39,409 bases of DNA from a virus (IMGVR_UViG_3300027386_000002:1-39409), one strand, 5' to 3'. Positions 792 to 38,256 are shown, counted from the first letter of the stretch. Program-made: numbers and translations. The notes: generated from the letters alone by a model not told the origin.

Positions 792-1191
792 GGCTGCGCT
801 GACGGTTGTTTTGGCCCGTACGGGCTTGTCGGTGATGCTGGCTCGCCGTCCTGCCCACCCTTCCTAGTCTTGTGCCCCCGGCCCCTTCGGTCGTGGTGGT
901 GGTGGCGATGGCGGCTTGGAGCCGTGGCGACTTTGTTCTTTGTCTTGGTCGTGGCTGGTAGGGTAGTGGACTGCGGCCCGGTCTCCTACGCTCCGCCTTG
1001 GCCTTAGCGCCCGTCGTGTGTTGCCTTGGCGTTGTCCTACCTCCGTTGCGCCTATATCCCGTCGCGGCTCGGGTGGTGCGGCCCTTGCCGCTGACGGGCT
1101 GGTCGGCCCTACGGGCTGTACGGGGGCGAGGGGCGGCGCTCCAACGGCGGGAATCGTCGTAATTGGCTGGGTGGGCTGCGGCGTCGAGACA
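792..1191 (+). repeat. Macro-repeat unit 2 (about 400 bp)
   Basis: It has the same start motif (ggctgcgctgacggttgttttggcccgtacgggcttgtcggtgatgctggctcgcc) and the same internal order as unit 1. Confidence 0.8.
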
Positions 1192-1470
1192 GGCTGCGCC
1201 AACGGTCCTCTTGGCCCTACGGGCTTGGCGGTGGTGCTGGCTCGCCTTTCTGCCCACCCTTCCTAGTCTTGTGCCCCCGACCCCTTCTGTCGTGGTGGTG
1301 GTGATGGTGGGAGCATGGGAGCACAGTGGCTTTGTTCTCTGTCTTGGTCGTGGCGGGTAGGCCAGTGGCTTGGGGCCCGGTCTCCTGCGCTCCGCCTTAG
1401 CCGCTCGGCCCGTCGTGTGATGGCTGGGGCCTTGGCCTTGTGTAGTGCGCGGTGGCCTCCTTAGCGGGCG
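1192..1470 (+). repeat. Macro-repeat unit 3 (partial, more diverged)
   Basis: It starts ggctgcgccaacggtcctcttggccctacgggcttggcggtggtgctggctcgcc. It continues with the ccttcctagtcttgtgccccc and gtcttggtcgtggc blocks seen in units 1 and 2. Confidence 0.7.
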
Positions 1471-1720
1471 GCTGACGGTTCGGTATGATAGCGGTTGTTT
1501 TGGCCGCCTTGTCCGGGGGGTAGTCTCTTGGGCGCTCGTCGTAGTTGGCTGGGTGGACTCAGACGCCGCTGCGGCAGCGCTTCGCGGGCCTTCGCTGGGG
1601 CAATCGTAGTAGTTGGCTGGGTGGACTCAGGCGCCGCTGCGGCAGCGCTTCGCGGGCCTTCGCTGGGGGCGGCTGACGCGTCGGTATGATAGCGGTTCTC
1701 TTGGCCGCCCTGTCCGGGGG
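1469..1720 (+). repeat. Pair of 52-nt direct repeats about 200 bp apart (cggctgacgNNtcggtatgatagcggttNtNttggccgccNtgtccggggg)
   Basis: 1469-1520 and 1669-1720 differ at only a few positions. Confidence 0.75.
1536..1669 (+). repeat. Tandem duplication of a 68-nt unit, two copies
   Basis: The unit tcgtNgtagttggctgggtggactcagNcgccgctgcggcagcgcttcgcgggccttcgctgggg occurs back to back. A third partial copy lies at 1151-1190. Confidence 0.8.
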
Positions 1721-2501
1721 CTGTCGCCCACCCAACTGCGCTGCTCCCCCATCCCCCCGGGTACCTCCCCGTCCGCTGCTCGCCCCCCCCCGTGCTCTTC
1801 TGATGGGCCGTGTGCTCACCAGCGATGTGACGGGAGCGTACGCGATACTGGCTTGGATGTTGTTCGCGGGGGTCTGCGCGTCGTGTGCTTGTCCGGTGTG
1901 TGCCGTCTGCCCTGTCTCGGTATCGTCAGCTCATCGTCGCTGGTTTCCCGCGTCATTCTGTAGCGGCTCTGCTGCGTCGGTTGACGGGCCGTGTGCGTCC
2001 CAGCCCGCCCCGTGCGCTGTTCGGCCTTCGCTCGCTCCCCCGCTCGGCCTGTCCTTCCTCTCCGCACCGAAGGGCGGCACTGTTCGATCTGCGGTCACGG
2101 TGGGGTCGTGGCGGCCTCTCGTTCGTTGTTTTGCGCTGTGTCCGTCTGCGTCGGCGTCGGGCTGTTGTTGTGCATGCCTAACGGTGGTCGCCTCCTCTCC
2201 TTACGGTGATGGCTGCGTTGGCCGCCCGCTCCTGAGTTGCCAGCTTGAGGCCCCGTCTTGGTCGCTGGGTCCGTCTCTGCCCCCCCCCGTCCCCTCGCGT
2301 TCGGCCTCCTGCGATTGTGTGGGTTTTGCTTTGCCGAGCGTTCCTGTCCGTTTCTCGGGGGGGCCACCCCCCCAGTCCGCTGCTCCCCCTTCCCTTCCCC
2401 TCCTCCCCGTCCGCTGCTCCCCCCACCCCGATGGGGCTTCTTTTGCCGCTGCGCCGACGTGTGATGTGTGCCCTACGGGCTTAGCGGTAATGCTGGCTCG
2501 C

Positions 2502-2575
2502 GGGAGGGCTTCAGCGGCTCGCGCCATCGGTGCAGTTGCAAGGAGAGTCGGCGGTGATGTGGCGCTGCGCTGATG
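2502..2575 (+). repeat. Left copy of an approximately 75-nt direct repeat bracketing the AT-rich block
   Basis: gggagggcttcagcggctcgcgccatcggtgcagttgcaaggagagtcggcggtgatgtggcgctgcgctgatgg aligns with 2814-2888. Confidence 0.7.
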
Positions 2576-3059
2576 GAAAATGCTTACACGCTCCTCCAAT
2601 TTCCAATTTTCACATCATTTGCCTCGAAATCGGGGCTGAGCGTCGTGAAATCTTGACGGAGAGCCTTGTTTTCGCGACGGAGAGCCTTGAAAACCGTTCA
2701 AATTTGACGAGAAATCGCGTCAAAAAAAATTTCTGTCGGAATTTTTGGAGAGACGAGAAATCAACGCAGATTTGCCATGATCGCGTCAAAAAAATTTCTC
2801 ATAGTAAAGTTTTGGAGAGGGCTTCAGCGGCTCGTGCCATCGGTGATTTTGCAAAGAATGTCAACGGTAGCGTGGCACTGCGCTCAGGCGAGAAACAGAC
2901 GCGGCGCAGCGGGAAACTAAAACGGGAGCACGGGATTTAAAGAGAGGGAGCACGCGGGAGCATGGCGGAGCGGAGCATTGCTGAAATCGGGTCAGAAAAA
3001 AATTTATCGGAAGTGAAGCCCTAAACGCGTCCCGTCGTCGTCGCCACCAACCCGAACCA
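2576..3059. promoter_or_regulatory. AT-rich non-coding block with iteron-like repeats; candidate replication origin or regulatory region
   Basis: gaaatcgNgtcaNaaaaaaatttNt occurs 3 times (about 2714-2734, 2780-2800, 2988-3008), ttttggagag twice and gacggagagccttg twice. Composition drops sharply in GC relative to both flanks. Confidence 0.35.
2814..2888 (+). repeat. Right copy of the approximately 75-nt direct repeat
   Basis: ggagagggcttcagcggctcgtgccatcggtgattttgcaaagaatgtcaacggtagcgtggcactgcgctcagg is roughly three-quarters identical to 2502-2575. Confidence 0.7.
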
Positions 3060-3156: not shown

Positions 3157-3909
3157 TTACACCACCAGCGTTTCTCGTATCGTCAGGGACGCATTAATCA
3201 GCTTGGAGAACCTCTCTTCGGCAATATTGAGTCCCCCTCCTCCTTCCTGTCCTCCCCCCAGTTGCCCATAGATCCACACATCGTCATCATTGACCATCAC
3301 CGTCCCATATTCGCCTGCTTCGAGCACCACCGTTTCAATCTCATCGCGCTGTCCATCCCTGAGCTTCTCCCACTGTATCTGCATCGTTCTCCAGACCCCG
3401 ATGGCGGCGGCTCCATCCTGCAGCCCTTCCCTTGTCGGCGCGAAGCCCAGCAGCGAGTTAAACACATTGACGCGTGCCGGTTGTGCGTTCAGCTCCACCA
3501 GCCTCCCCGTCACCACTCGGGCGCACTCCAGCCGTCCCCCCTCATCCGTTTGCGGGAACGCGATACGCACCTCATCGACAGCGCTCCTCGTCCGGACCGT
3601 AGCCACAAAGACGCGCCTTGAGTCATCGACCGTCAGGATGAGCGTTTCGATGATCCTGTTATTGTTGAGCAGCATCACCGTCGCGTCTCCCAGCAGGTTA
3701 CAGCCCACGATCCCGACGAAGTCGATCACGTTTCGCCCTCTCTTCAGCATCGTGGCCGTATAGACTCGTTGTTCATCGGCGTGCCGTGTGATCATCTTCC
3801 TTCTGAGGCTTGGCGTGGCCAGATTATCGGCCAGGCTGCCCGTAGCCAGCTCATTAGGCGTCAGCGTCACCCTTTGGAATGGGAAGACCGTACCAAAGGC
3901 CAGTGCCAT
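3157..3909 (-). CDS. Virion/tail structural protein (250 aa), paralog of the 37486-38256 product
   Basis: The track ORF starts at TTG 3927, whereas ATG 3909 has GGAG 8 nt upstream. The blocks MALAFGTVFPF, LRRKMIT, IDFVGIV, RLECARVVTGRLV and W..L...QRDEI align with MAISLATSFPF, LRRRLIT, INFVSII, RLETALIIAGELV and W..L...ERDEL of the paralog. Confidence 0.75.
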   Translation of the reverse strand: MALAFGTVFPFQRVTLTPNELATGSLADNLATPSLRRKMITRHADEQRVYTATMLKRGRNVIDFVGIVGCNLLGDATVMLLNNNRIIETLILTVDDSRRVFVATVRTRSAVDEVRIAFPQTDEGGRLECARVVTGRLVELNAQPARVNVFNSLLGFAPTREGLQDGAAAIGVWRTMQIQWEKLRDGQRDEIETVVLEAGEYGTVMVNDDDVWIYGQLGGGQEGGGGLNIAEERFSKLINASLTIRETLVV

Positions 3910-3925
3910 GTCATCATCTCCATAC

Positions 3926-3996
3926 AAAAAGGCCGCGCAACCATCTTCCTCTGACGTCTCTCCCCAGACACCATCGAGATAGAATTGCGCGGCCTT
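3926..3996 (-). terminator. Hairpin plus T5 run downstream of the capsid gene; possible attenuator or terminator
   Basis: The minus strand carries TTGCGCGGCC paired with GGCCGCGCAA (10 bp), followed by TTTTTG. The loop is long at about 44 nt. Confidence 0.4.
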
Positions 3997-8668: not shown

Positions 8669-9682
8669 ATGGCAATAAAGGTCAACGCATCGGGAGGGGA
8701 GCACGACCTGTGGCTGCCCGGCGACGAGCGCATCGAGGACTTGGAGCTGTTCACCAGCCAGCAGTTGGGCATGAACATCACGCCGGAGATGGTCCTTTCC
8801 CGCAGCAAGAAGAACCAGCAGTACAAGCGGGCCACGGCGCTGACCCGGCAGCAGGTCGACACCATCCTGTCGGTCAAGGAGCACCGGCGCACCGTCGTCC
8901 GGGGAGCGCACAGCCTGGGCAAGTCCGTGGCCATAGGCGTCTTGGGCTGTTGGTGGCTGACGCGCAAACGCGACAACATGGTGCTGATGGCGTCCGCCAA
9001 AGAGGATCAGGTGTCCAAGGTGCTGTTCCCCAACATGTTGGGCCACTACGTCCGGGCGTTCGGTAGGCGCGGCAAGCTGGGCGCACTGCAGGTCTATCCC
9101 GACCAGCTCGCCCATCCCAAGTGGTGCGCCATAGGCATCAGCGGCCAGAACACCGAGGCTTTCGCCAGCTACCACCCGCACGGCGACGGCGAGGTCTTGC
9201 TGGTAATCGATGAGGGCAGCGCCATGACCGACGCGCTGGCGCAGGCGGCCGAGGGGCTGATAAGCAGCGAGGCGGCGCGGATAGTGGTGCTGGGCAACCC
9301 GCTCAACACCCAGCCGCGCGATCCCTTCCGCGCCTTGTTCACCGACAAGCAGTACAATAGGATTCACTGGAAGACCAGCGAGCATCCCAACATCCAGCAT
9401 CAGAGGCCGATCTATCCTGGTTGCATCTCCCAAAAATGGATCAACGAGATGATTGAACGGCACGGGTTAGAGTCCGACCAGGTTCAGGCGCGTTGCTTCG
9501 GGGAGTTCCCGCCCATCAAGACCGACTCCGAGAAGGGCAAGCTCATCGACGTGAATGCCGTTGCCCAGTCATCGGGCTTGACCGTCGAGGAGATATTGGC
9601 CGAGATGCACAGCGAGGAACCGGAAGTAAAGGACCTGTTCCATTTCGTGGGGCAGGGACACACCTACTCACAGGGGGTATGA
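8669..9682 (+). CDS. Terminase large subunit, ATPase domain only (337 aa)
   Basis: It has Walker A VRGAHSLGKS and Walker B VLLVIDEGS, plus a linker-like motif FGEFP. The ORF stops about 60 aa later, with no RNaseH-like nuclease domain. Confidence 0.7.
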   Translation: MAIKVNASGGEHDLWLPGDERIEDLELFTSQQLGMNITPEMVLSRSKKNQQYKRATALTRQQVDTILSVKEHRRTVVRGAHSLGKSVAIGVLGCWWLTRKRDNMVLMASAKEDQVSKVLFPNMLGHYVRAFGRRGKLGALQVYPDQLAHPKWCAIGISGQNTEAFASYHPHGDGEVLLVIDEGSAMTDALAQAAEGLISSEAARIVVLGNPLNTQPRDPFRALFTDKQYNRIHWKTSEHPNIQHQRPIYPGCISQKWINEMIERHGLESDQVQARCFGEFPPIKTDSEKGKLIDVNAVAQSSGLTVEEILAEMHSEEPEVKDLFHFVGQGHTYSQGV

Positions 9683-10500
9683 TGAGACTACTATCGAACG
9701 ACGAGATCAAGGCCGGGTGTCAGGCGGCCAACATCATCCAGATGAGAGGTTGGGGCATCCGCGCCAACAGTCCCTTGGTCGGCAAGGGCGCGTTGGTCGA
9801 GGTGAAGGTGCAGGGCGGTGAGTGGTCCAACGCCAAAACGGGCGAGTCCGGGCAGATATGGAACATAGAGGCTTCATTCGTTCAGGAGATAGACGACCGC
9901 TCCGAGATCATGAACGTGCTCGACCGGATCATGGGCGAGGGGCCGATAGGGTTGTATGAGGATATATTCGCTCAGGGGTTTCGCAACCAGTTCGCCGCGA
10001 TATGCTGCCAAGGCAACATGCCAAGGGCACGGACGTTGATGCCGGCGTTCAAGCCCGAGGCGGAAGCATCGACCAGCGCCGCCAAGCGCGGATGCGCCAA
10101 CAGGGAGACCGAGGTAGCGGTGGAGTTTCAGGACATAATGAGCAATGCGACGACGAAGTGGTCGCCCTTCCAGCGACGCAACTATGCCAGGCCGAGGGAC
10201 AAGGCCGCGATCCACGGGCGCGAGTTGGCCAAGGCTACTACCATAGCCGTGGCGACGCATCCGACGCAACAGGGGATTAGTAGGATCAACCGCAGCAAAG
10301 GGGAGCAGCCCGCTCTGGATGCGCTATTGGCCGGTTGTTGGATACTCAATCGGGAGATCCAGAGGAGGTCGTTCAGGCCAAAGGCGGGGCCCAGAGCCGA
10401 CGAGCGTGGGGCATCACTGGACAGCGCCACGATGGCGCGATCGGTAGCAGAATCATCCCGACTCGACGGGGGCATCCTCCGTTTTCCTCGACAGCAATAG
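9679..10500 (+). CDS. Hypothetical protein (273 aa)
   Basis: Its start forms an ATGA overlap with the preceding stop. The N-terminal 110 aa or so look globular (KGALVEVKVQGGEWSNAKTGESGQIWNIEA has a weak OB-fold flavour). The C-terminal half is low complexity. The last 20 codons are read out of conserved element copy B. Confidence 0.5.
   Translation: MMRLLSNDEIKAGCQAANIIQMRGWGIRANSPLVGKGALVEVKVQGGEWSNAKTGESGQIWNIEASFVQEIDDRSEIMNVLDRIMGEGPIGLYEDIFAQGFRNQFAAICCQGNMPRARTLMPAFKPEAEASTSAAKRGCANRETEVAVEFQDIMSNATTKWSPFQRRNYARPRDKAAIHGRELAKATTIAVATHPTQQGISRINRSKGEQPALDALLAGCWILNREIQRRSFRPKAGPRADERGASLDSATMARSVAESSRLDGGILRFPRQQ
10421..10437 (+). repeat. Left copy of a perfect 17-bp direct repeat (acagcgccacgatggcg) flanking element copy B
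   Basis: The identical 17-mer recurs at 10542-10558. It contains the mini-hairpin cgcca-cga-tggcg. Confidence 0.9.
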
Positions 10501-17408: not shown

Positions 17409-17603
17409 GGGGCGGTGGCTCGACATCCGGGGCGGTGGCTTCGTCTAGTCCGCCAGTCATCGCCCCGGCCTCATTGAAGCGACGGGCACCGCAGATGGGT
17501 CGTTCTGGCTGCATTTTCTTTCCGGGGTGGAAACGCCCCGGCCTCATTGAAGCAAGCAAGCAAGCACCAACGAACTGGCGAGGGTCCACCTGTGCTCTTG
17601 CCT

Positions 17604-28764: not shown

Positions 28765-29490
28765 CTATTCGCCGCCGCCACCAGCATCACCACCGCCATC
28801 GGGCGCTTGCTCACCGCTGCCATCAGCCTCGATGGCCTTGGCTGCGGACTCACCGGCCTGCTCAACCGCCTTAGAGTCGCTGAGCGCCTTCTGCTTCATG
28901 ACCTCAACCTGAGCGCCATAGATCATCATGCGGGCCTCGTTGGCCATGCGCGAGAACTCGGAGGCTTGGTCGATGGCTTTGGCCAGTCCCTCCGGCAAAG
29001 CGCCCCTCTTCATTTTGAGGTTCATAGAGATCTTAGCCGTCATATCCGTGGTTCTGGTTTGCTCGGATTTGTGGGTGACCTCACAGGACATAGAGGCATG
29101 AGCCGAGACGGGGCCCCAGCCACCGGAGACACCAGCTTCTGTCTTAGCATTGACGCCGGTCTCGGACTTGTCTTCGGTGTGGGATCCGATGTTCATTTCA
29201 AAATCGAATTCGGCAGTGTCGTACTCAAAGCGTTGCGCCTCCACCGCTTCAATGGGCGGCAGCGATGAAATGCGGTGCAAGTCGTTAAACGGCTCAGGCA
29301 TCGACTCGATCTGATGGATCTCGATATTCGGCGCCTTGAGAAGCGGCTGAATGAAATTCGCTAAGTGTCTGATCTGACCGTTAGTGTCGGAGTCCTGCAG
29401 CGCTCCGCTTATCTCAGCTATCTTGGCAGCCAGCGTGCCGAAGGCGGTGGACATGTTATCAACAAGTGCCTCATTGCTTGGCCCGGCCAT
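28765..29490 (-). CDS. Hypothetical virion-operon protein (241 aa) with a Gly/Asp-rich C-terminus
   Basis: AGGAGA precedes the ATG. It is the last gene of the minus-strand late operon. Confidence 0.65.
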   Translation of the reverse strand: MAGPSNEALVDNMSTAFGTLAAKIAEISGALQDSDTNGQIRHLANFIQPLLKAPNIEIHQIESMPEPFNDLHRISSLPPIEAVEAQRFEYDTAEFDFEMNIGSHTEDKSETGVNAKTEAGVSGGWGPVSAHASMSCEVTHKSEQTRTTDMTAKISMNLKMKRGALPEGLAKAIDQASEFSRMANEARMMIYGAQVEVMKQKALSDSKAVEQAGESAAKAIEADGSGEQAPDGGGDAGGGGE

Positions 29491-29916: not shown

Positions 29917-30918
29917 TTATCCGTAGCGGAAAGAGATGGTTTGACCGGCAAGGTTAGTGGGCATGCGACGTCGCGAGACACCGATAATGTAGCCTTGGCC
30001 GTCCACCACAAGACTGGCACCGCCTTGCGGCACGAAAGCACCGGCGGCGGAGCTGTCGTCCAAGAACACATCACGCGGGTAGCCGCGTGGCGACTCGACA
30101 CCGAAGAACAGGTAGCCGGTATCGGTGCCGAGCGTAGAGACGGGTATGCGCGTCGATTCGTCCGTAGAGCGCGTGGAAATCTGAAACTCAGCTTGAGTGA
30201 CCATGTTGTCGGCAGACCAGCCCACGTACACGACGTGCTCAACCGGCTCCAGCGCCGCCACGCGGTCTTCCAGCGCGGTGAGCTCCATCGGGCTGGCGAG
30301 CCTGTAGTTGACGCCGTTGATGGTGATGGAAGAGAGTTGACCGTCTTGGTCGTCCGTGGCCGGGTTGGCTTCCACCTGCAGGTCGGCGTTGATGGTGATG
30401 CGTTCGGTCACGTCGTCGTGGTCGAGGTCGATGCGGTTGCCTTGGTGGATTATCGCTTTGACCAGCAGGTAAATGTCATCGACGGTGATGGGCAGGGCCG
30501 AGCCGGGGACACTACCAAAGCCACCAGTAGTGCCGAAGCTGCCATAAGCGAGCTGGCTTTCCGATTCGGCAGAGGCAGCCAAGCGCAGGCCACCCTCAGC
30601 GCCGACCTGGTCGAGTAGTTTTTCCGCTTGCTCGAAGTAGGCTTGTCCGCGTTCAACGTCTCCTTCACCGAAAAGAAGCTGTGAGGCGGCCAAGCGCGAC
30701 GAGATGGGCCGAGCCAACGAGAGCAGGTTGTCGTCGTCGTACGGCCCTTCGCCCAGTCCGATGGCAACGAAGCGGGCCGAGATGATGGCGAAGGCGTCAC
30801 CGATGGCTTCTTCCACTTCGTCCAGTGTGGGCGTCGTATCAGCCGAGTACTGAGCGCCGGTGAGCCGGGTTATATCGGTCGCGACGGAAAAGCCATCTAC
30901 TCCGATGGTGATTGCCAT
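29917..30918 (-). CDS. Tail or fibre-associated structural protein (333 aa)
   Basis: GAAGG precedes the ATG. It has a beta-rich C-terminal half. The call is positional. Confidence 0.6.
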   Translation of the reverse strand: MAITIGVDGFSVATDITRLTGAQYSADTTPTLDEVEEAIGDAFAIISARFVAIGLGEGPYDDDNLLSLARPISSRLAASQLLFGEGDVERGQAYFEQAEKLLDQVGAEGGLRLAASAESESQLAYGSFGTTGGFGSVPGSALPITVDDIYLLVKAIIHQGNRIDLDHDDVTERITINADLQVEANPATDDQDGQLSSITINGVNYRLASPMELTALEDRVAALEPVEHVVYVGWSADNMVTQAEFQISTRSTDESTRIPVSTLGTDTGYLFFGVESPRGYPRDVFLDDSSAAGAFVPQGGASLVVDGQGYIIGVSRRRMPTNLAGQTISFRYG

Positions 30919-30984
30919 GAGAAAAACCTTCTTTCGTTAGTTTCAATCGTTCCAAAGATACCAATACAGCGCAGTAGCAACAAA

Positions 30985-33900
30985 TTAAATGCCAAGGAAG
31001 TTAAAGAAGCGCCTAATGATTCCCTGAAGTGCCGGGTCGAATTCAAAATCGCCAAAGAAGCCGTCGTCGTTCCTCGGGGCCAAAGAAACCAGTATGCCGG
31101 TGCCGACAGTCGAGAAGGTGTTGGCTTCATGGGGAGCGAGCAAGATGGTAGTGACGCTGAGGCTGACGGGAACGGGTAGCTGAGCAAACTGCGCTTCAAA
31201 CGATTGGATGGTCTGATCGACGGCAGCCCTGTAAGAGCCAACGAACTGCTGGTAGTAGATACGCGCACCCACCTCATAGCCCTGGAAAGAGCCTTGGGGC
31301 TGGCGCAGTTGGGTGTCAATCGAATCGCGCATGCGGCCGGTTACGACTGGACAAAGCTCGCGCAACCGCTGTTCAACCAGCGCGGTGATCTGCATGAGGA
31401 ACTCGAGATTACTGCCTTCGAGGTGCGGCGGCACGAACTCAGTGGTGTTGGGCAAGAACCATACCTCAACGGAAGGGATGCTTTGGCCGTTATCATCGGC
31501 GGGACTTATCGCGGGGACGACGTTGAGGAAGCCCCCGTGGGTGAGGTTCTCTTTGAGGGCGTTTCCTTCCGCGATGGCCGTTGGGATGACGCTGTTGTAG
31601 TCGTCGTCGTCAATCGCGTCAGAGTGGTTCGATCCGATGATGAGGCCGAAGCGTTCGCCTTCTTGATAGGAGTAGATGCCAATGGTGACGTGGAGCAGGC
31701 TACCGGTCACGCCCCCTTGGATGATGCCGAGGATGGAGTTGGCGAGGTTTAGCGCGTCCGTAGCAATAGGGGTGTCGAAGTCGGCCGGGTCCAGCGATGG
31801 GCGAGGGTCGTAGTCTCTGTAGTTGTCCGTATCCGCATCGTCCGGGTCGCCACCAATGATATTGCCGTCTATGTCGTACACGGTGAACTCGCCGGTAGTC
31901 TCGTCCAAGACGGTGAAGTATCCAGTGGCCGGGTCATACGAGAAGTCAGGAGCACCTTCCATCAGGAAGAAGACGCCGTTGCGGTCGATGCCTATCCAGC
32001 GGTCGCCTATCGCGTCGTAGAAGTAGGGGAAGAACCGCTGCCCTATGTCGATGGGGCCCTGATCAACGCGGCCACCGGGCCTCTGACGGGGAACGCCCAT
32101 TTGCGGGGGGATGATGTTGAGGTCTTCGAGCGGGATGGGGTAGCCCTCCTCATCGACGATGACCGGGCGGCCATGCTGATCGAGTCCAATCCAATGGCCA
32201 ATCGTATCGTCGTAATAGATATCGCCGACGTAGGTGTCCGGATCATATTCATCGATGCCGCCGTCGCCAGTTCGGTCTTCCGGGCGGGTTATGTTGGCCC
32301 ATATCGGGTTGCCATTGTCGTCCGTGCCCACCTGTTCGCCGCCGGGGAAGTAGCCTTCGAGGTTCGCTTGGACGACGTGGCGGCCACCGGACTGTTCCTG
32401 GACGAAGTGCCCAATCTCCGGGTCGTAATACATGTTATCGGGCAGCGTGGCGAACATCTGGGCGAGGCGTTGGCGTCCATTGGGCGTCGAGTCGTCCGGC
32501 AGCTCGGTAATGGGTATCGGCGGAGTGCCGTCCGTGAACTCCGCCCGGTCTATCTCGACATAGCCCCGGTTAGAGTCGTAGAAGTAGAGCGTCGGATCTG
32601 ATCCGCCGAGCGGGTTCCTTGGGCTGTCGAATGCACCCCGGGGCGGACGGCCTTCGGTATCGAAGTGGTCTGAGAAGTCCGCTTGAATGACGTGGCGGCC
32701 TTGTGAGTCTATCTCAATGAAGTGCCCAATCTCCGGATCGTAATAGACGTTATCCGGCAGGCTGGAGAACAGGTTGGCGAGGGCGCGGCGTCCGGCGGGC
32801 GTGCTGGCGTCCGGCAACTCCGTGCGGGGGATGGGGCCTTCGCCGTCGGAAAACTCACTGCGATCTATCCTGTAGAGTCCGACGTTCGGGTCGTAGTAGT
32901 AGAGGTCGGGCTGGGCCGGGGAGGCGTCGAAAGAAGGATCGGGCCGATCTTCGTCAACCGGAGTGCCGCCACCGCCACCGGTATCGCCAGTGCCACCGGT
33001 ATCGCCGCTACCAGGAACATCGCTCCTGCCAGTGCCACCGGTATCACCGCTGCCAGTACCGCCCGGGTCGCCGTAATCGTATATGATGACCACGTTGCGG
33101 GGATCAATATCCAAATGGAGGATTTGGAGATAAAGAACAATGACATATTCAATCTCGCTCTCGTGGACTGGCCAGTCGGGGCGACCATAGACGGTGGAAA
33201 CAAGGTCAGAATAGCGTACCTGTAATTCAACGTCGTCGTCGTCATCTACTGTCGTGGGCTTGGCCGCGATGAAGCCAGCGGGATTGGCACCCGGGCTCTC
33301 ATCCTCGTCGTCATCATCGTCGTCCGAGGGGGTCTGGCCTAACGTTCCTCCTTGCTGAATCTCGATCTGACGGCGACGTTCATCCTCTTCACGCTGTCTG
33401 CGCCGCCGATCCTCTTCCTCTTGTTGACGCCGTAGAATCTCTTGCTCTATAAGCTCCTGTCGGCGTCGTTCCTCTTCGGCGCGCCGCCGGTCTTCTTCCG
33501 CTTGGCGGCGTCGTTCGGCCTCCGCTGCTTGGCGGCGTCGTATCTCATCTTCCAGCGCTTGCAGGCGACGCCGTTCTTCTTCGGCCTCCTCTTCGCGCCT
33601 GCGTTCTTCTTCCTCGCGACGCCGCCGTTCCTCTTCTTCTTCCTGTTCACGCCGCCGGCGGTCCGCCTCCTCCTGTGCCCGTCGTTCGCGCCGCCGTCTA
33701 TCCGCCTCCTGCTGTGCACGTCGTCGCCGGTCGGCCTCTTCCTGTGCACGTCGTTCGCGCTCTTCTTGTTCGCGTTGCTCTCGTTCGCGCCGGCGGCGGT
33801 CGGCCTCCTCCTGGATCAGTCTATCCCGCTCCTCCCGGTCTCGGTCGCGCTGTTCTTGTTCGCGACGCTCTCGTTCCTCTTGTTCGCGCCGCCGCCGTTC

Positions 33901-34581
33901 CGCTTCTTGTTCGCGCCGTTCCCGCTCTTCTTCCTCGCGCCGTTCCCGTTCCTCGCGCCGCCGCCGTTCCTCAATCTGACGGCGCATCTCCTCTTCGCGC
34001 CGACGACGATCCTCTAATTCGCGGTCTTCGCGTTCCTGCTCCGCTTCCCGCCGCCGGTCTTCTTCCTCCTCAGCCTCAAGACGTCGCCGTTCCTCTTCGG
34101 CTTCCCGTCGCTCCCGTTCAGCTTCGCGCTCCTCTTCCTCCCGTTCGCGCCGTTCATCTTCCTCTTCTTGACGCTGACGTTCCTCCTCATCATCATCGTC
34201 ATCACCAGAAGGGGTGCGGGGCTGGCCCAGTGTTCGCCGTTGTTCCGCTTCGATTCGACGCCGACGTTCTTCGGCCTCTCTTCGCGCCCTCAGTTCGCGT
34301 TGTCTGCGCTCCTGTTCCTCGTAGGCTTCTATAGCCGCACGGCGACGACGGTCGGCCTCATTTCGACGCCTATCTTCCGCCTGGCGCCTCTGAATCTCAA
34401 GGATAGGGTTAGAACCGCCGGCCGCTTCGTCCGAGTCGAAGCGCTCAAGGTCATCACCACCGGCGGGCTCGTCCGAGTCGAAGCGCTCAAGGTCATTGAG
34501 TTGACCGCCGCCAACGTCATCGGGGTCTTGGCCACTCGAACGGGTGATAATCACCTCGTTGGGATGAAACCAACGGGCCAT
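30985..34581 (-). CDS. Large virion protein (1198 aa): Glu/Arg-only helical segment, Gly-rich linker, tandem beta-hairpin repeat modules and a C-terminal globular domain; possible internal/ejection or tail-needle protein
   Basis: Its start forms a TGATG overlap with the upstream stop. Residues about 62-430 are almost exclusively E/R/Q/A/D. GDTGGTG repeats follow, then YYDPEIGHF-type repeats. The gene order does not fit a canonical tape measure. Confidence 0.7.
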   Translation of the reverse strand: MARWFHPNEVIITRSSGQDPDDVGGGQLNDLERFDSDEPAGGDDLERFDSDEAAGGSNPILEIQRRQAEDRRRNEADRRRRAAIEAYEEQERRQRELRARREAEERRRRIEAEQRRTLGQPRTPSGDDDDDEEERQRQEEEDERREREEEEREAERERREAEEERRRLEAEEEEDRRREAEQEREDRELEDRRRREEEMRRQIEERRRREERERREEEERERREQEAERRRREQEERERREQEQRDRDREERDRLIQEEADRRRREREQREQEERERRAQEEADRRRRAQQEADRRRRERRAQEEADRRRREQEEEEERRRREEEERRREEEAEEERRRLQALEDEIRRRQAAEAERRRQAEEDRRRAEEERRRQELIEQEILRRQQEEEDRRRRQREEDERRRQIEIQQGGTLGQTPSDDDDDDEDESPGANPAGFIAAKPTTVDDDDDVELQVRYSDLVSTVYGRPDWPVHESEIEYVIVLYLQILHLDIDPRNVVIIYDYGDPGGTGSGDTGGTGRSDVPGSGDTGGTGDTGGGGGTPVDEDRPDPSFDASPAQPDLYYYDPNVGLYRIDRSEFSDGEGPIPRTELPDASTPAGRRALANLFSSLPDNVYYDPEIGHFIEIDSQGRHVIQADFSDHFDTEGRPPRGAFDSPRNPLGGSDPTLYFYDSNRGYVEIDRAEFTDGTPPIPITELPDDSTPNGRQRLAQMFATLPDNMYYDPEIGHFVQEQSGGRHVVQANLEGYFPGGEQVGTDDNGNPIWANITRPEDRTGDGGIDEYDPDTYVGDIYYDDTIGHWIGLDQHGRPVIVDEEGYPIPLEDLNIIPPQMGVPRQRPGGRVDQGPIDIGQRFFPYFYDAIGDRWIGIDRNGVFFLMEGAPDFSYDPATGYFTVLDETTGEFTVYDIDGNIIGGDPDDADTDNYRDYDPRPSLDPADFDTPIATDALNLANSILGIIQGGVTGSLLHVTIGIYSYQEGERFGLIIGSNHSDAIDDDDYNSVIPTAIAEGNALKENLTHGGFLNVVPAISPADDNGQSIPSVEVWFLPNTTEFVPPHLEGSNLEFLMQITALVEQRLRELCPVVTGRMRDSIDTQLRQPQGSFQGYEVGARIYYQQFVGSYRAAVDQTIQSFEAQFAQLPVPVSLSVTTILLAPHEANTFSTVGTGILVSLAPRNDDGFFGDFEFDPALQGIIRRFFNFLGI

Positions 34582-36731
34582 CAGGTTGTCTCATAGGTCA
34601 CATCGAGCTGCATCCGGCCATCCCTCGAGCTGGCCGTAGCACCGGATTGCCAGTCGCAGGTCAGCCAGAGGTACGCACCGTCGAGGCCGTTGGCTTGGGC
34701 GGGCGTGAGGGTGTAATCGAAGGAGACATCGCCGGCGGGCTGGAAGCTGCCGCTGTCTCTGAGCAGGGTCGCTCCGGACACGCTGTTCCATCCCGGCCAA
34801 GGGGAGGCGGGTTGCGGCGGGGCGTTTTGAGACGAGAAGAGGCGAAACCGGCAGCCTCTGTTAGTGTTGGCCGTCATCCTAACGCGCAGTCCAGAGATGC
34901 GGTGTCCGTCCAGGGCCAAGAGGCGGTAGTAGGAGGCCAACAGGCGGTCGTACACGCGGGCGTGGCCAGTGACCAGGTCGGAGGCCAGCGGGGTGGCGAC
35001 GATGATGTTCTCGGTGCGGAGCGGGTAGTTGTCGCGAGTCTGGAAGAGCTGACCGGCCTGAGAGACCTGAGAGAAATAGGTCTCGGTGAAGGTGGCCTCC
35101 TCCCGGTCTTTGATGCGGGCGGCCACCACCGCGAGGCTGCGCGAGCCCCAGTCCAGTTGCGTCTCCTCGACGAGGTAGTAGCGTTCATCGGCGACGGAGC
35201 CGAAGTCAATTAGGTCGCCCGGCAGCACGTCGCCCATCGGCAGGCGCAGCGAGAATCCAAACAGCGCGACCGGGTCCTCTTCCGTCCAGCGCGACCAGCG
35301 CTCGGAGCCGAGGCCCTCGACGAAGCGCGTGCGGGCGAGCTGGCGGTCGGGCTGGGAGCACCAGCGGAAGCGCCGCTCATCCTCGATGATGCCGAATTCT
35401 TCTTGGTCGGCGGCATTGTCGATGGTGGTGCTGTTGGCGTAGAGCTGCCGCCTTTCGGCGTTGAGGACCAAGGGGTACTGTCCGAAGGGCGCGTTGACGC
35501 GGTTGGCGTACAGCGGGTGGGGGCCGAGGATGCGTATGTCATCACCACCGGCGGGATTCTTCAAAAGCCAGCCCGGGTCAACGGGTCGGCGCAGGTCATC
35601 GGCGGACGGCTCGAGGACAAAGCGGTCGGCCACCGACCAGACGGGTTCCTCCCCGGCGGGGGTGTTGGCTTGGCCGTGCCTCCTGTTGCCGTCTATCTGG
35701 CGGATGATGACCCCGTACTCGTCGGCTATCTCCCCGGCGGCCACCCCGACTTCCTCCGGTCCTTCGATGAAGGTGTAGATGTTGACGCCGCCGCGAAACT
35801 GGAAAGGGGCCGCGGCAATAAGGCCGTGGGCGTCGAGCGCCGCGGCGGGTTGGTTGGCCTTGTAGCGCAAGAGCCAGTAGATGACCTGTCCGGCCTCGCC
35901 GACGAGCTCGTTGGCGGCCAGCCCGGGCAGTGGGCGAGCCGCCGTGGTGGTGATGCCGCTGCCGGCGTACCACAAAAGCGTCTCCTCGTTATGCTCGATC
36001 CTGTCGCCTTGGCTGTCCTCGCGGTGCGCCCCGATCCACAGCGCCCTGTCCTCGTCCACGTCATCCGAGTAGCTGTCCTCGGCGGTGTAGGGATTGAAGA
36101 AGACTTCCCCGAAGATGTTGGGGCCGCCGGTGAGGGGCAGGTTGCCCAGCGCCCAGCTCAGCGCCCCGCCGACGCGCCCTATGCAGTTCATGGGGAACAG
36201 CTCCGCGGAGATGGAGCGGGCGGCGCTGTCGCCGAACAGGATGGGGTACGGAAGGCCGCGGGTGCTTTCCGGCGCGCTATCGGAGTCAATCAGGTCCGTG
36301 AGGATGGGGAAGGACTGGTAGGACAGCGGCCCGGACAGGAACAGGCGGCAGCGGCTGCCGTCGCGGCTGGGCGACGGCGTCCAGTTGGTGGGGACGAAGC
36401 CCCGCCAGGTATAGACGGAGCTGGCGTGGTTGCCGACGGTGGATTTGCGATAATCATCCGGGCTGTTGCCCTGCCCGATGCGGACCGTAACGGCCTTGCC
36501 GGACAGGTCGTAGGTGTCGTGGAGGGCGTCTATGTCCGCGAACGAGACGTCGAGCCAGTCGGTGGGGCGACGGCCGGGACGCCCGAACTCGTTGGCCGAC
36601 TGGCGCAGGGAGGCGTCGTGGACGGTGAAGTTGCCGTAGTTGGTGCCGTCTTCGAGCACCTTGCGGCGGTCGGAGCCCCGGAGCGTGACATTGGGCGTGG
36701 CGGCTATCTCAACGAGTATCTCGACGGTCAC
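34581..36731 (-). CDS. Large tail structural protein (716 aa from a GTG that overlaps the upstream stop as GTGA); nozzle or host-specificity-like
   Basis: The track ORF extends to 36863 but overlaps the upstream gene. The GTG at 36731 forms a GTGA overlap with the stop of 36728-37486. The call rests on size and position only. Confidence 0.65.
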   Translation of the reverse strand: MTVEILVEIAATPNVTLRGSDRRKVLEDGTNYGNFTVHDASLRQSANEFGRPGRRPTDWLDVSFADIDALHDTYDLSGKAVTVRIGQGNSPDDYRKSTVGNHASSVYTWRGFVPTNWTPSPSRDGSRCRLFLSGPLSYQSFPILTDLIDSDSAPESTRGLPYPILFGDSAARSISAELFPMNCIGRVGGALSWALGNLPLTGGPNIFGEVFFNPYTAEDSYSDDVDEDRALWIGAHREDSQGDRIEHNEETLLWYAGSGITTTAARPLPGLAANELVGEAGQVIYWLLRYKANQPAAALDAHGLIAAAPFQFRGGVNIYTFIEGPEEVGVAAGEIADEYGVIIRQIDGNRRHGQANTPAGEEPVWSVADRFVLEPSADDLRRPVDPGWLLKNPAGGDDIRILGPHPLYANRVNAPFGQYPLVLNAERRQLYANSTTIDNAADQEEFGIIEDERRFRWCSQPDRQLARTRFVEGLGSERWSRWTEEDPVALFGFSLRLPMGDVLPGDLIDFGSVADERYYLVEETQLDWGSRSLAVVAARIKDREEATFTETYFSQVSQAGQLFQTRDNYPLRTENIIVATPLASDLVTGHARVYDRLLASYYRLLALDGHRISGLRVRMTANTNRGCRFRLFSSQNAPPQPASPWPGWNSVSGATLLRDSGSFQPAGDVSFDYTLTPAQANGLDGAYLWLTCDWQSGATASSRDGRMQLDVTYETT

Positions 36732-37486
36732 ACCAGTATCTCCGTGAAGGTGAAGTCGACGTCCGAGCGCAGTCCAGCCCGCTCCGTGCCGCTGATGGCC
36801 ACCGAGCCCATGCGCCAGTCGCCGCGCTCTATCTCGAACATGAGGATGGGAAGCGACGCCCATTGCTCGATGAGCTGTTGGTCGGCGGCAGCCGCGTCCA
36901 AGGCCACGTAGCGGAAGACGGAGTACTCGCCCTGGCGGATGGGCGGCGCATAAGGGTCGACGACGCGGGAGCGGTTCTGGCGGCGCTCGAGCGAGCCGCG
37001 TATCTCGCGCCCGAGCTGCTGTACTTGGCCGGGCTGGACGAAGCCGACGACGGTGCGGAAGGAGCGGGGCTGGGCTATCTGGTAGCGGATGGTCCGGAGG
37101 TCTCTGGTCTGTGTGGCCTCGTCAACGCGCAGGGAGGGGATGCCGGAAAGGTCGAGCTGGACGATGGGGACGGTCTCTTCCACGGCACCGGTGCTGCTGC
37201 GGAGGCGCACGGCGACGGCCTGCGCGGACAGCCGGTAGAACAGGGAGGCGATGGCGTTGATGGGCCGGTCGGTGGTTGACAGGTGCTCTATGTTCCACGT
37301 GATGGCGTTGGCTACGTCCAGGCCGGAGGTGTAGAAGCGCAGCAGCGGGTCGAAGTTGGCCAGGTTCTCCTTGACGGACGGCTCCTCCCCATCGACGGTC
37401 TCGGTCAAGGAGCCGCTGGACAGGGTCGAGGTGACGACACTAAAGGCCCGGTCCGGGATGAACGCGCGGGGGTAGTGGTCGGCCAT
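36728..37486 (-). CDS. Tail structural protein (252 aa), possibly a distant paralog of its neighbour
   Basis: Its start forms a TGATG overlap with the upstream stop. It has a similar length and beta-rich character. Confidence 0.65.
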   Translation of the reverse strand: MADHYPRAFIPDRAFSVVTSTLSSGSLTETVDGEEPSVKENLANFDPLLRFYTSGLDVANAITWNIEHLSTTDRPINAIASLFYRLSAQAVAVRLRSSTGAVEETVPIVQLDLSGIPSLRVDEATQTRDLRTIRYQIAQPRSFRTVVGFVQPGQVQQLGREIRGSLERRQNRSRVVDPYAPPIRQGEYSVFRYVALDAAAADQQLIEQWASLPILMFEIERGDWRMGSVAISGTERAGLRSDVDFTFTEILV

Positions 37487-38256
37487 CAGGTTGAGGGTAC
37501 CACTTCCTGCAAGCGGAGCCGGGCGTCGCTGTAGTCGCTGAACTGACGGTCCGTGATCACCAGCGGCCCGTCCACGAACCCGTACACGACATCATCGGAC
37601 TGGGTGTCGTCGTAGAAGACTATCGAGGAGGTGGCGTTGGTGGCCCGGTAGAGGTCGCGAAGCTCGTCGCGCTCGATCCGGGAAAGGGCCGTCCAGGTGA
37701 TGTTGACCTCGCGGAACAGGGCGCGGCTGCTGGAGGGTATCTGGATGCCGCGCGGAAGGCGCTCGAAGCGCAAGCGGCCGAGGTTAATGCGGACGGACTG
37801 GGGAAGGGCCTGCGGGCTGACGAGCTCACCAGCGATGATGAGCGCCGTCTCGAGGCGACGGCTGGCCGCGACCTGGGGAAAGACGACCTGTATGCGGCGA
37901 ACGCCGGTGTAGGTCTGCGCGAACAGCCGGTGGGCCGACTGGCCAGAGACGAGAGCCTGTGCGGTCTGACCGTTGTTGATGACCTGGTTGCCAGCGGTCG
38001 GCAGCAGGTTGATGGTGGCCTGACCGGTGACGTTGGGGTCGATGATGGAGACGAAGTTAATCCGCTGGTCGGCTCCGGCGGTGAGCGTGACGGTATAAGC
38101 CTGAGCCGCGGCGCGGGCGTTGGTGATGAGGCGACGGCGGAGGTTGACGTCCCGTATGTCAGCAGCGCGAGAGGATTCGGATAGGTCGTCCGGCGTGACG
38201 ACGACGGCGACCCCATCGGCGTTGAAGGGGAAAGAGGTTGCGAGTGAGATGGCCAT
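37486..38256 (-). CDS. Tail structural protein (256 aa), paralog of the 3157-3909 product
   Basis: It is the first gene of the tail operon. The conserved blocks are listed under 3157-3909. Confidence 0.7.
   Translation of the reverse strand: MAISLATSFPFNADGVAVVVTPDDLSESSRAADIRDVNLRRRLITNARAAAQAYTVTLTAGADQRINFVSIIDPNVTGQATINLLPTAGNQVINNGQTAQALVSGQSAHRLFAQTYTGVRRIQVVFPQVAASRRLETALIIAGELVSPQALPQSVRINLGRLRFERLPRGIQIPSSSRALFREVNITWTALSRIERDELRDLYRATNATSSIVFYDDTQSDDVVYGFVDGPLVITDRQFSDYSDARLRLQEVVPST

What the first reader, a model, noticed from the sequence alone, without database searches (positions are those of the whole stretch)
33290..34400. A Glu/Arg-only segment of about 370 residues in a 1198-aa virion protein: a predicted very long single alpha-helix
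Residues about 62-430 of the 30985-34581 product consist almost entirely of E, R, Q, A and D in alternating charge blocks (RRREEEERERREQEAERRRREQEERERREQEQ...). The run is interrupted once by TLGQPRTPSGDDDDDEEE, and it ends with a similar GGTLGQTPSDDDDDDEDE. This resembles the ER/K single-alpha-helix motif known from myosins and caldesmon. The longer block of about 285 aa would span roughly 40 nm as a rigid helix, comparable to a Gram-negative envelope. In a genome with no tape-measure gene, it could act as a ruler, a spacer, or an ejected trans-envelope rod. Arg is used almost exclusively in place of Lys.
Basis: partly seen in the sequence, partly recalled or inferred. Interest (0 to 1): 0.65.

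Follow-up and report, generated by a model that had tools for sequence, protein, structure and literature searches.

The report
Giant Glu/Arg helix in phage protein
An uncultivated sponge-associated phage encodes a 1198-residue structural-module protein carrying a lysine-free Glu/Arg stretch predicted to form a 42 nm free-standing alpha-helix, but close relatives lack it, so it is a lineage-specific expansion rather than a conserved molecular ruler.

Summary
The ORF 30985-34581 (-) encodes 1198 aa. Residues 59-117 and 132-409 are about 70-77% E/R/D, contain no Lys, Pro or Gly, and are 5% hydrophobic.

AlphaFold2 predicts two uninterrupted helices of 59 and 278 aa (about 9 and 42 nm). Opposite charges are enriched at i->i+4 (z=+8) and like charges are depleted (z=-8). 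There is no heptad seam and no charged face. This is a single-alpha-helix (SAH) type pattern, not a coiled coil.

The C-terminus is an HK97 gp10 / lambda gpZ-type tail-completion domain (hhalign 99.3%). In phage 80alpha that domain sits as a monomer inside the neck, capping the DNA end. The gene lies in a conserved block (256-252-716-target-fibre) next to the head genes, so a virion role is likely.

The 'ruler' reading is weakened. Six orthologous lineages keep the C-terminal two-thirds, but their longest charged helix is only 18-83 aa. The window's helices are expansions of an ancestral 'short helix + TLG + acidic run' module, and tandem DNA repeats lie within them. Arg-only usage reflects lysine avoidance across the whole tail module.

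Whether the helix is monomeric is untested. Designed Arg-only ER repeats aggregate.

The parts
30985..34581 (-). Whole gene, 1198 aa (P0001). Its ATG overlaps the stop codon of the upstream 716-aa gene by 1 nt.
34408..34581 (-). Residues 1-58: predicted disordered N-terminus with two copies of DLERFDSDE(P/A)AGG. This is a degenerate form of the SPLExxF and PFAGDPFGR motifs repeated 2-5 times in orthologues.
34231..34407 (-). Residues 59-117: E/R/A/Q helix 1, 59 aa, about 9 nm. Block-mean pLDDT is 88-95 over residues 61-110.
34180..34233 (-). Residues 117-134: TLGQPRTPSGDDDDDEEE, the helix-breaking 'TLG + acidic run' motif. The motif is shared with orthologues.
33355..34188 (-). Residues 132-409: E/R-only helix 2, 278 aa, about 42 nm. 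It has no K, P or G, 5% hydrophobic residues, and a net charge of about -16.
33620..33972 (.). Degenerate tandem DNA repeats inside helix 2, with periods 24, 39, 51 and 69 nt and 67-87% matches. They are traces of expansion by duplication.
33298..33351 (-). Residues 411-428: GGTLGQTPSDDDDDDEDE, the second 'TLG + acidic run' motif.
32947..33246 (-). Residues 446-545: a small conserved segment (IEYVIVLYLQIL...DP) followed by a Gly-rich linker (GGTGSGDTGG...). It aligns to DPLSLTxxEYxIVYGxLRPxFAGGPRVGGGGDTGPGG in orthologues.
31807..32946 (-). Residues 546-925: Tyr/Asp/Gly-rich beta-hairpin repeats (YYDPEIGHF..., LPDDSTPxGR...). They are conserved in orthologues, and the fold was not identified.
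31456..31779 (-). Residues 935-1042: conserved alpha/beta domain with block-mean pLDDT about 69-87. It is duplicated in P0007 and P0008.
31081..31410 (-). Residues 1058-1167: HK97 gp10 / gpZ-type tail-completion-like domain, with the motif CPVVTGRMRDSI at residue 1077.

Best explanation
The gene encodes a minor virion protein of an uncultivated phage found in marine-sponge metagenomes.

Its conserved C-terminal part ends in a tail-completion (HK97 gp10 / lambda gpZ / SPP1 gp16.1 / 80alpha gp51) type domain. By analogy, this domain would sit as a single copy inside the head-tail channel against the end of the DNA. The rest of the chain would then point down the channel and leave ahead of the DNA (inferred).

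The N-terminal third is a fast-evolving, lysine-free, highly charged arm. It is built from short linear motifs, short charged helices, and 'TLG + poly-Asp/Glu' breaks. In this one lineage two of the short helices have grown, at least partly by tandem duplication, into E/R-only helices of 59 and 278 residues (shown).

Their i->i+4 Glu/Arg pattern, even charge distribution around the helix axis, and lack of a hydrophobic seam let each stand as a salt-bridge-stabilised single helix needing no partner (predicted). That property would suit a protein present in one copy.

The helix most likely works as a thin, soluble, semi-rigid extension or spacer of the arm, with freely variable length. It is probably not a ruler matched to a fixed virion or envelope dimension (inferred from relatives).
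For: Helix and SAH pattern:
- Composition.
- i->i+4 statistics with z = +8 / -8 against shuffles, and at most 12.7% a/d hydrophobic occupancy.
- Charge moment at 100 degrees is below shuffles (0.112 vs 0.187 +/- 0.019), so there is no charged face. Kappa is about 0.13.
- AF2 helices 59-117 and 132-409, block-mean pLDDT mostly 82-95.

Lineage-specific expansion:
- Orthologues' longest Pro/Gly-free runs are 83, 43, 37, 26 and 18 aa, against 284 aa here.
- The 'helix + TLG + acidic run' module is shared, e.g. P0005 IEDQQRRTLGDFSGT against window IEAEQRRTLGQPRTPSG.
- Tandem DNA repeats lie inside the segment.
- All six Arg codons and both Glu codons are used, so this is not a simple nucleotide repeat.

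Virion role:
- The gene order 256-252-716-target-333 (fibre-like) is conserved next to the portal, protease and capsid genes in the window's own phage and five related contigs.
- The family profile retrieves small proteins; 9 of the 10 scanned match PF04883 at E<=0.002, 7 of them above Pfam's cut-off.
- hhalign gives 99.3% probability, E = 4.6e-20.
- P0004 matches PF04883 at E = 0.0038 and phrog_5 'tail completion or Neck1' at E = 1.7e-4.
- The AF2 secondary-structure order helix, hairpin, helix matches the described gp51 fold. gp51 is a monomer in the neck lumen that caps the DNA end (PMC11661146).
- The tail-completion protein is needed for correct DNA routing into the cell (PMC11099176).

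Stability of an Arg-only helix:
- The myosin-6 SAH with all Lys changed to Arg stays monomeric and becomes more helical (PMC5347031).
Against: - No proteomic or structural evidence places the protein in virions or in the channel.
- The window protein's own C-terminus does not hit PF04883 directly.
- Foldseek gave no significant match for the C-terminal model, which has mean pLDDT 57.6.
- Known tail-completion proteins are 112-255 aa, stand-alone, and belong to long-tailed phages. Their genes lie beside terminator and tube genes. None of this holds here.
- Designed Arg-only ER repeats (AEEERRR) aggregated at neutral pH, and EK1R2 oligomerised. Monomeric behaviour is therefore not assured.
- The i->i+4 pattern could be inherited from duplication of an already patterned unit rather than maintained by selection.
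Confidence: 0.5

Rival explanations
1. Ruler or trans-envelope rod. The 42 nm helix has a length-specific job: it either sets tail length in place of a tape-measure protein, or bridges the Gram-negative envelope after ejection.
For: No tape-measure, tube or sheath family is detected in the genome. The tail-completion domain normally contacts the tape-measure N-termini inside the lumen, so a covalent N-terminal extension would occupy the tape-measure's place. The predicted length is 41.7 nm. The sequence is identical apart from one substitution in independent samples.
Against: Orthologues in the same gene slot have helices of only 18-83 aa, or largely acidic, Pro/Gly-containing arms. The total N-terminal arm varies from 250 to 556 aa. 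The helix carries a net charge of about -16, whereas tape-measure proteins are reported as positively charged against a negative lumen. There is no chaperone or frameshift gene context. Tail morphology is unknown.
Confidence: 0.12
2. Functionally neutral low-complexity expansion. Replication slippage inflated a tolerant linker, and the helix has no role of its own.
For: It is absent from all five other lineages with a readable N-terminus. Tandem DNA repeats lie inside it. Codon usage there differs from the rest of the genome, with GAA more frequent than GAG and with CGG, CGT and CGA enriched. The N-terminal arm is the least conserved part of the family.
Against: There are 278 residues without a single Pro or Gly and only 5% hydrophobic residues. 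Repeat copies have diverged to 67-87% at the DNA level while the E/R pattern is retained. The charge moment is lower than random. No length polymorphism was seen among independent assemblies.
Confidence: 0.2
3. Self-associating Arg/Glu helix. The segment is helical but forms intermolecular charge-zipper bundles or higher assemblies rather than a monomeric SAH.
For: Designed AEEERRR repeats were highly helical at pH 3.5 but insoluble/aggregated at neutral pH, and AEEEKRR oligomerised. Arg makes promiscuous, multidentate salt bridges (PMC5347031). Arg makes up 34% of the segment and Lys is absent.
Against: The natural, non-repetitive myosin-6 SAH stayed monomeric when all Lys were changed to Arg. 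The window sequence is irregular and contains Q, A and D. It has a net negative charge and no charged stripe that could zip. If the C-terminal domain is a single copy, as in 80alpha, there would be no partner chain in the virion.
Confidence: 0.15
4. Intrinsically disordered polyampholyte, or a conventional coiled coil.
For: Charged residues make up 77% and are well mixed, with kappa about 0.13. Highly charged sequences are often scored as coiled coils by older predictors (own knowledge).
Against: AF2 block-mean pLDDT is mostly 82-95, as one continuous helix. There is no Pro or Gly. The i->i+4 pairing is strong. The a/d positions are at most 12.7% hydrophobic, which excludes a canonical heptad core.
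Confidence: 0.05

Closest known systems
ER/K single alpha-helix (SAH) domains of myosin-6, -7a and -10, caldesmon, drebrin and the CAF-1 KER region
   Same: Very high E plus basic residue content. Oppositely charged residues are enriched at i->i+3/4. There is no hydrophobic seam. The predicted helix is long and free-standing, and such helices are used as a spacer or lever.
   Different: The segment has Arg only, with no Lys. At 278 residues in one stretch it is much longer than the experimentally characterised SAHs read here, such as the 128 Å (12.8 nm) KER helix of CAF-1. It carries a net negative charge and has no basic face, unlike the DNA-binding KER helix. It lies in a phage structural-module protein. 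Monomeric state is untested.
Trichohyalin (mammalian hair-follicle protein, E/R/Q-rich, proposed single-stranded alpha-helical rod). This comparison rests on own knowledge and was not checked here.
   Same: It is an Arg-based rather than Lys-based E/R/Q helix of hundreds of residues, built from degenerate tandem repeats.
   Different: It is eukaryotic. It is richer in Q and L. Its Arg residues are substrates for deimination and cross-linking. There is no sequence homology to the window protein.
Tail completion proteins (HK97 gp10, lambda gpZ, SPP1 gp16.1, 80alpha gp51; Pfam PF04883)
   Same: The C-terminal domain shares the PVxTGxxRxSI motif and a helix-hairpin-helix order. The profile-profile match is 99.3%.
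   Different: Known members are stand-alone proteins of 112-255 aa in long-tailed phages, encoded next to terminator and tube genes. Here the domain ends an 1198-aa protein lying between a 716-aa gene and a fibre-like gene. The genome has no recognisable tube or tape-measure gene.
Tape-measure proteins, and the ejection or internal-core proteins of short-tailed phages (T7 gp14-16, P22 gp7/20/16, needle gp26)
   Same: These are large, partly helical proteins encoded between tail-hub and fibre genes. They are expected to lie in or leave through the DNA channel. The gene sizes 252-716-1198-fibre resemble T7 gp14 (196 aa), gp15 (747 aa), gp16 (1318 aa) and gp17.
   Different: There is no sequence or profile similarity. 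The protein has no hydrophobic or transmembrane segments. It would be single-chain rather than a trimeric coiled coil. The lysozyme-type transglycosylase (SLT) domain is encoded by a separate gene.

Membership tests
ER/K single alpha-helix (SAH) motif | More than about 70% charged residues (E with K/R), low hydrophobic content, and no Pro or Gly over tens of residues | tested here: met
   77% charged, 5.4% hydrophobic, and a 284-aa Pro/Gly-free run.
ER/K single alpha-helix (SAH) motif | Opposite charges enriched, and like charges depleted, at i->i+3 and i->i+4 | tested here: met
   At i->i+4, z = +8.0 and +6.2 for opposite pairs and -8.0 for like pairs. At i->i+3, E->R has z = +5.0. All values are against 2000 shuffles.
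ER/K single alpha-helix (SAH) motif | No heptad hydrophobic seam, so not a coiled coil | tested here: met
   The best register has 12.7% hydrophobic a/d positions, or 19% counting Ala.
ER/K single alpha-helix (SAH) motif | Monomeric, highly helical in solution, with non-cooperative melting | not testable with these tools
   Only an AF2 prediction is available. The literature shows that designed Arg-only repeats can aggregate, while an Arg-only myosin-6 SAH stays monomeric.
ER/K single alpha-helix (SAH) motif | Mixed Lys/Arg as the basic partner, as is typical of natural SAHs | tested here: not met
   Lys is 0% in the segment and 0.2% in the whole protein.
HK97 gp10-like tail completion protein (PF04883) | Sequence match to the family model | tested here: inconclusive
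   The window's C-terminus gives no Pfam hit even at E<=10. Orthologue P0004 scores 18.6 bits against a cut-off of 21.4. The family profile, however, retrieves bona fide PF04883 proteins, and hhalign gives 99.3% probability.
HK97 gp10-like tail completion protein (PF04883) | [quoted passage not shown] | tested here: inconclusive
   The AF2 secondary-structure order fits: H513-531, E543-548, E556-561, H566-587 in model numbering. Foldseek found no significant PDB or BFVD match.
HK97 gp10-like tail completion protein (PF04883) | Small stand-alone protein (112-255 aa) encoded next to the terminator and tube genes of a long-tailed phage | tested here: not met
   The domain is the last ~140 aa of an 1198-aa protein (residues 1058-1167). 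Its neighbours are a 716-aa gene and a fibre-like gene. No tube or terminator gene is detected.
Tape-measure protein | Match to tape-measure families, a mostly helical chain, and position after a chaperone gene pair with a frameshift | tested here: not met
   There are no PHROG or Pfam hits. Only about 340 of 1198 residues are helical rod. The upstream gene is a conserved 716-aa protein.
T7-type internal core / ejection proteins | Sequence or profile similarity to gp14, gp15 or gp16, with an SLT domain in the largest protein | tested here: not met
   There are no PHROG hits. hhalign of the neighbouring gene families against T7 gp11, gp12 and gp15 gives probabilities of 0.3% or less. The SLT domain is in a separate 170-aa gene.

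The most novel reading that the evidence does not exclude
This phage group lacks a tape-measure protein, and the DNA-end-capping tail-completion domain has been fused to its own single-chain channel filler. In this lineage, a monomeric 42 nm Arg/Glu single alpha-helix serves as a partner-free rod. It would pass through the tail channel still folded and span the host envelope ahead of the DNA. That would make it a new, non-coiled-coil solution to the tape-measure / ejection-conduit problem.
Probability: 0.1. Interest if true: 0.8.

Novelty: new variant of a known kind. Interest (0 to 1): 0.5.

Why it matters
If the helix behaves as predicted, it would be a natural, Arg-only single alpha-helix nearly 280 residues long. 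Design work reported that Arg-rich ER repeats aggregate, so it would be a useful test case for what keeps such helices soluble. It could also serve as a ready-made 40 nm protein spacer.

For phage biology, the family shows a tail-completion domain, known only as a small protein of long-tailed phages, fused to a protein of 1100-2400 aa. This occurs in a tiny, sponge-associated phage group whose tail genes match nothing known. That makes the group worth imaging.

The comparative result also cautions against reading a striking length as a ruler, because the helix is dispensable in sister lineages.

Tried and rejected
- Phage-database searches with the conserved C-terminal 753 aa, the 716-aa neighbour, and 25 kb of the window's DNA found nothing.
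- The capsid protein is only 23-32% identical, by tblastn, to Mu-like and other phages. Roseobacter phage CRP-6 has a tape-measure gene and a different layout, so it gives no guidance.
- Profile searches against PDB sequences with the target family and the 716-, 252- and 256-aa families found nothing.
- Foldseek of the C-terminal model gave only weak beta-propeller/NHL-like and tail-fibre noise. Foldseek of the N-terminal model gave nothing.
- The ER segment alone found nothing in PDB sequences or in the 5.8-billion-protein set, probably because of composition filtering. How common such segments are could therefore not be measured.
- The search for related loci found no relatives in IMG/VR or JGI metagenomes. 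The C-terminal alignment was too variable to scan with.
- hhalign against T7 gp11, gp12 and gp15 was negative.
- DNA binding by a basic face, as in the CAF-1 KER helix, was considered and rejected. The charge moment is below random and the net charge is negative.
- Tail morphology (short or long) could not be resolved.
Full report
**1. The observation**

The minus-strand ORF 30985-34581 encodes 1198 aa. The finding's coordinates correspond to residues 62-431.

- Residues 62-117 are R 37.5%, E 23%, A 14% and Q 9%.
- Residues 136-424 are E 34.6%, R 34.3%, Q 9.7%, D 6.9% and A 6.6%, and Lys does not appear.
- The run is broken once by TLGQPRTPSGDDDDDEEE (residues 117-134). It ends in GGTLGQTPSDDDDDDEDE (residues 411-428).
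- Both flanks align in frame to orthologues.
- The identical protein is on at least two independently assembled contigs from different samples. A third variant differs only by R337W.

The segment is therefore real and translated. One run carrying it, SRR8092756, is a metagenome of the Mediterranean sponge Aplysina aerophoba.

**2. Helix, and of which kind**

- AF2 without an alignment predicts two continuous helices, 59-117 and 132-409. Block-mean pLDDT is mostly 82-95, lower at the helix ends and dipping to 62-72 around residues 250-270. The regions 1-57, 119-129, 408-448 and 503-541 score below 50.
- Against 2000 composition-preserving shuffles of residues 136-412, opposite charges at i->i+4 are strongly enriched (72 and 65 against about 41; z = +8.0 and +6.2). 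Like charges are depleted (30 against 81; z = -8.0). E->R at i+3 is also enriched (z = +5). Charge autocorrelation is -0.51 at lag 4 and +0.24 at lag 8.
- Hydrophobic residues are 5.4%, and the best heptad register fills only 12.7% of a/d positions. A canonical coiled coil is excluded.
- The charge moment at 100 degrees per residue is lower than random (0.112 against 0.187 +/- 0.019). Charges therefore wrap evenly round the helix, with no basic or acidic face. Net charge is about -16. This argues against a DNA-binding helix of the CAF-1 KER type.
- The helix lengths are 278 aa (41.7 nm) and 59 aa (8.8 nm).

These are the sequence hallmarks of ER/K single alpha-helices. The caveat comes from PMC5347031. 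Designed AEEERRR repeats were highly helical at pH 3.5 but insoluble/aggregated at neutral pH, and AEEEKRR oligomerised. The irregular natural myosin-6 SAH, in contrast, stayed monomeric and became more stable when every Lys was changed to Arg. The window sequence is irregular and contains Q, A and D, so it resembles the second case. Its monomeric state is nevertheless untested.

**3. What the protein is**

The whole protein has no Pfam or PHROG hit and no match in 50,697 phage records. The family is tiny:

- six proteins in the 5.8-billion-protein set;
- nine with E <= 1e-10 among 1.84 billion representatives.

All members share the C-terminal two-thirds:

- a small segment plus a Gly-rich linker;
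- about 380 aa of Tyr/Asp/Gly-rich beta-hairpin repeats;
- an alpha/beta domain;
- a terminal domain with the motif CPV(V/R)TGRMRDSI.

The evidence that this terminal domain is of the HK97 gp10 type is as follows:

- The family profile also retrieves small proteins of 90-216 aa. Of the ten scanned, nine match PF04883 (HK97-gp10_like) at E<=0.002, seven of them above Pfam's cut-off.
- hhalign of the two alignments gives 99.3% probability, E = 4.6e-20.
- Orthologue fragments hit PF04883 (E = 0.0038) and phrog_5 'tail completion or Neck1' (E = 1.7e-4) directly.

This family includes lambda gpZ, SPP1 gp16.1 and 80alpha gp51.

- gp51 is a monomer inside the neck lumen. It caps the DNA end and bundles with the N-termini of three tape-measure chains (PMC11661146).
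- SPP1 particles lacking gp16.1 eject their DNA outside the cell (PMC11099176).
- Known members are stand-alone proteins of 112-255 aa in long-tailed phages.

**4. Context**

The window is a phage genome. Identified genes:

- a Mu-type portal, a head protease and a capsid protein on the minus strand;
- a Dda-like helicase, a primase, two methyltransferases, an HNH endonuclease, an SLT-type lytic enzyme and a 1306-aa fibre on the plus strand.

The block 256-252-716-target-333-147-241 (DUF2589) is conserved in order on related contigs. Orthology was confirmed by BLAST. The 333-aa product shares its N-terminal ~176 aa with a 1275-aa protein in the same slot of another genome, as fibre anchor domains do.

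None of the 256-, 252- or 716-aa families matches anything in PHROGs, Pfam, PDB sequences or T7 tail proteins. No tape-measure, tube or sheath family is detectable anywhere in the genome. Tail morphology therefore stays unresolved. A virion role for the target is inferred from synteny and from the tail-completion domain.

**5. The comparative test of the 'ruler' idea**

Six lineages have a readable N-terminal arm. Its length before the Gly-rich linker varies from 250 to 556 aa. The longest Pro/Gly-free run in each is:

| Protein | Longest Pro/Gly-free run | Note |
|---|---|---|
| Window (P0001) | 284 aa | E/R only |
| P0004 | 83 aa | E/R/Q-rich, 13% hydrophobic |
| P0007 | 43 aa | |
| P0006 | 37 aa | |
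| P0002 / P0005 | 26 aa | |
| P0008 | 18 aa | |

P0002 is 56% identical (BLASTP) over 86% of the conserved C-terminal 753 aa and sits in an identical gene order. Yet its arm is acidic, contains Trp, Pro and Gly, and has only short helices.

What is shared is a module of 'short charged helix + (R/Q)TLG + S/T/G/P + poly-Asp/Glu'. Examples are IITEIYERTLGKFSGTLDEDDEEEE, IEDQQRRTLGDFSGT and ERQQQETLGETPSD, set against the window's IEAEQRRTLGQPRTPSGDDDDDEEE and IEIQQGGTLGQTPSDDDDDDEDE. The arms also share N-terminal SPLExxF and PFAGDPFGR motifs, which are degenerate in the window as DLERFDSDE(P/A)AGG x2.

The window's helices are thus expansions of ancestral short helices. Tandem DNA repeats with periods of 24, 39, 51 and 69 nt and 67-87% matches lie inside the long one. 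All Arg and Glu codons are used, so the tract is not a recent pure nucleotide repeat.

Correlation with a physical dimension could not be examined.

**6. Arg instead of Lys**

This is not a property of the helix alone. The five proteins encoded consecutively in the tail block have 0-0.8% Lys (256, 252, 716, target, 333), and the fibre has 1.6%. The helicase, the primase and a 304-aa protein have 4-8%.

**7. Best model and rivals**

- Shown: the composition, the charge pattern, the predicted helices, the lineage specificity, the C-terminal tail-completion-like domain, and the synteny.
- Inferred: the protein is in the virion. Its C-terminal domain sits as one copy in the channel at the DNA end. 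Both termini of gp51 point away from the DNA, so the long N-terminal chain would point down the channel and leave first.
- Inferred: a helix that needs no partner, is about 1.2 nm thick and is very soluble would suit a single-copy protein that must traverse a narrow channel.
- Conclusion: because relatives manage without it, I rate it a variable spacer or extension rather than a ruler.
- Rivals: a true ruler or envelope-spanning rod (0.12), a neutral slippage product (0.2), a self-associating Arg/Glu helix (0.15), and disorder or a coiled coil (0.05).

**8. Novelty**

SAH motifs are well known, and Arg-based E/R rods exist (trichohyalin; own knowledge). The library search for single alpha-helices in bacteriophages returned no report of such a motif in a phage virion protein. 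A tail-completion domain fused to a giant protein is outside the described range.

I file this as a new variant of a known kind, of moderate interest. It is striking and experimentally tractable, but probably not a conserved mechanism.

Noticed in passing
window 290-2900 (also L001 2115-5268): About 2.6 kb has no credible ORF, and public gene calls leave a 3.1 kb gap. GC is 65-68% and the minus strand is strongly purine-rich (AT skew -0.38 to -0.53). The region is built from ~500-bp direct repeats (312-648, 816-1152, 1215-1428; 79-93% identity) plus 54-68-nt repeat families. No Rfam family or tRNA is present. A gap before the 256-aa gene also exists in the related contig L003 (1003-2832).
   Followed up: partly
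window 3157-3927 (-) and 37486-38256 (-): Two paralogous 256-aa genes (28% identity) flank the non-coding repeat region. The related genomes L007, L008 and L010 each show one 257-aa homologue; whether a second paralogue exists there was not checked.
   Followed up: partly
window 29917-38256 (-), tail module: Lysine is avoided across the tail module: 0-0.8% Lys in the 256-, 252-, 716-, 1198- and 333-aa proteins. Replication proteins of the same genome have 4-8%. The cause is unknown; avoidance of Lys-directed modification or proteolysis is a guess.
   Followed up: partly
window 29917-30918 (-); L007 17482-21309: The 333-aa product shares its N-terminal ~176 aa (40% identity) with a 1275-aa protein in the same slot of a related genome. 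In L005 the matching sequence is split over two ORFs. This behaves like a tail-fibre anchor domain with swappable C-termini.
   Followed up: partly
L009 12211-19397 vs L007 10001-17143: In one related long-read contig the target homologue is split into 1909 aa plus 476 aa, with the alpha/beta and tail-completion domains alone in the second product (P0010). In another contig it is fused as 2380 aa. The second copy of the same genome on that contig (L008) is fragmented differently, so indel errors are likely.
   Followed up: no
window 17422-17480 (+): A borderline Rfam hit to CRISPR-DR16 (35.6 bits, cut-off 35) lies in an intergenic spot. The sequence contains GGGGCGGTGGCT twice. There is no array, so this is probably chance or a hairpin.
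   Followed up: partly
window 8669-9682 (+) and 9493-10500 (+): The only terminase-like signal is a weak PHROG hit (1.4e-11) on a 337-aa ORF, which overlaps a second 335-aa ORF with no hits. The large terminase may be split, frameshifted or very divergent.
   Followed up: no
window 28765-29490 (-): A DUF2589 (PF11655) protein is conserved at the end of the tail block in three genomes. It is the only Pfam-recognisable member of that block.
   Followed up: no
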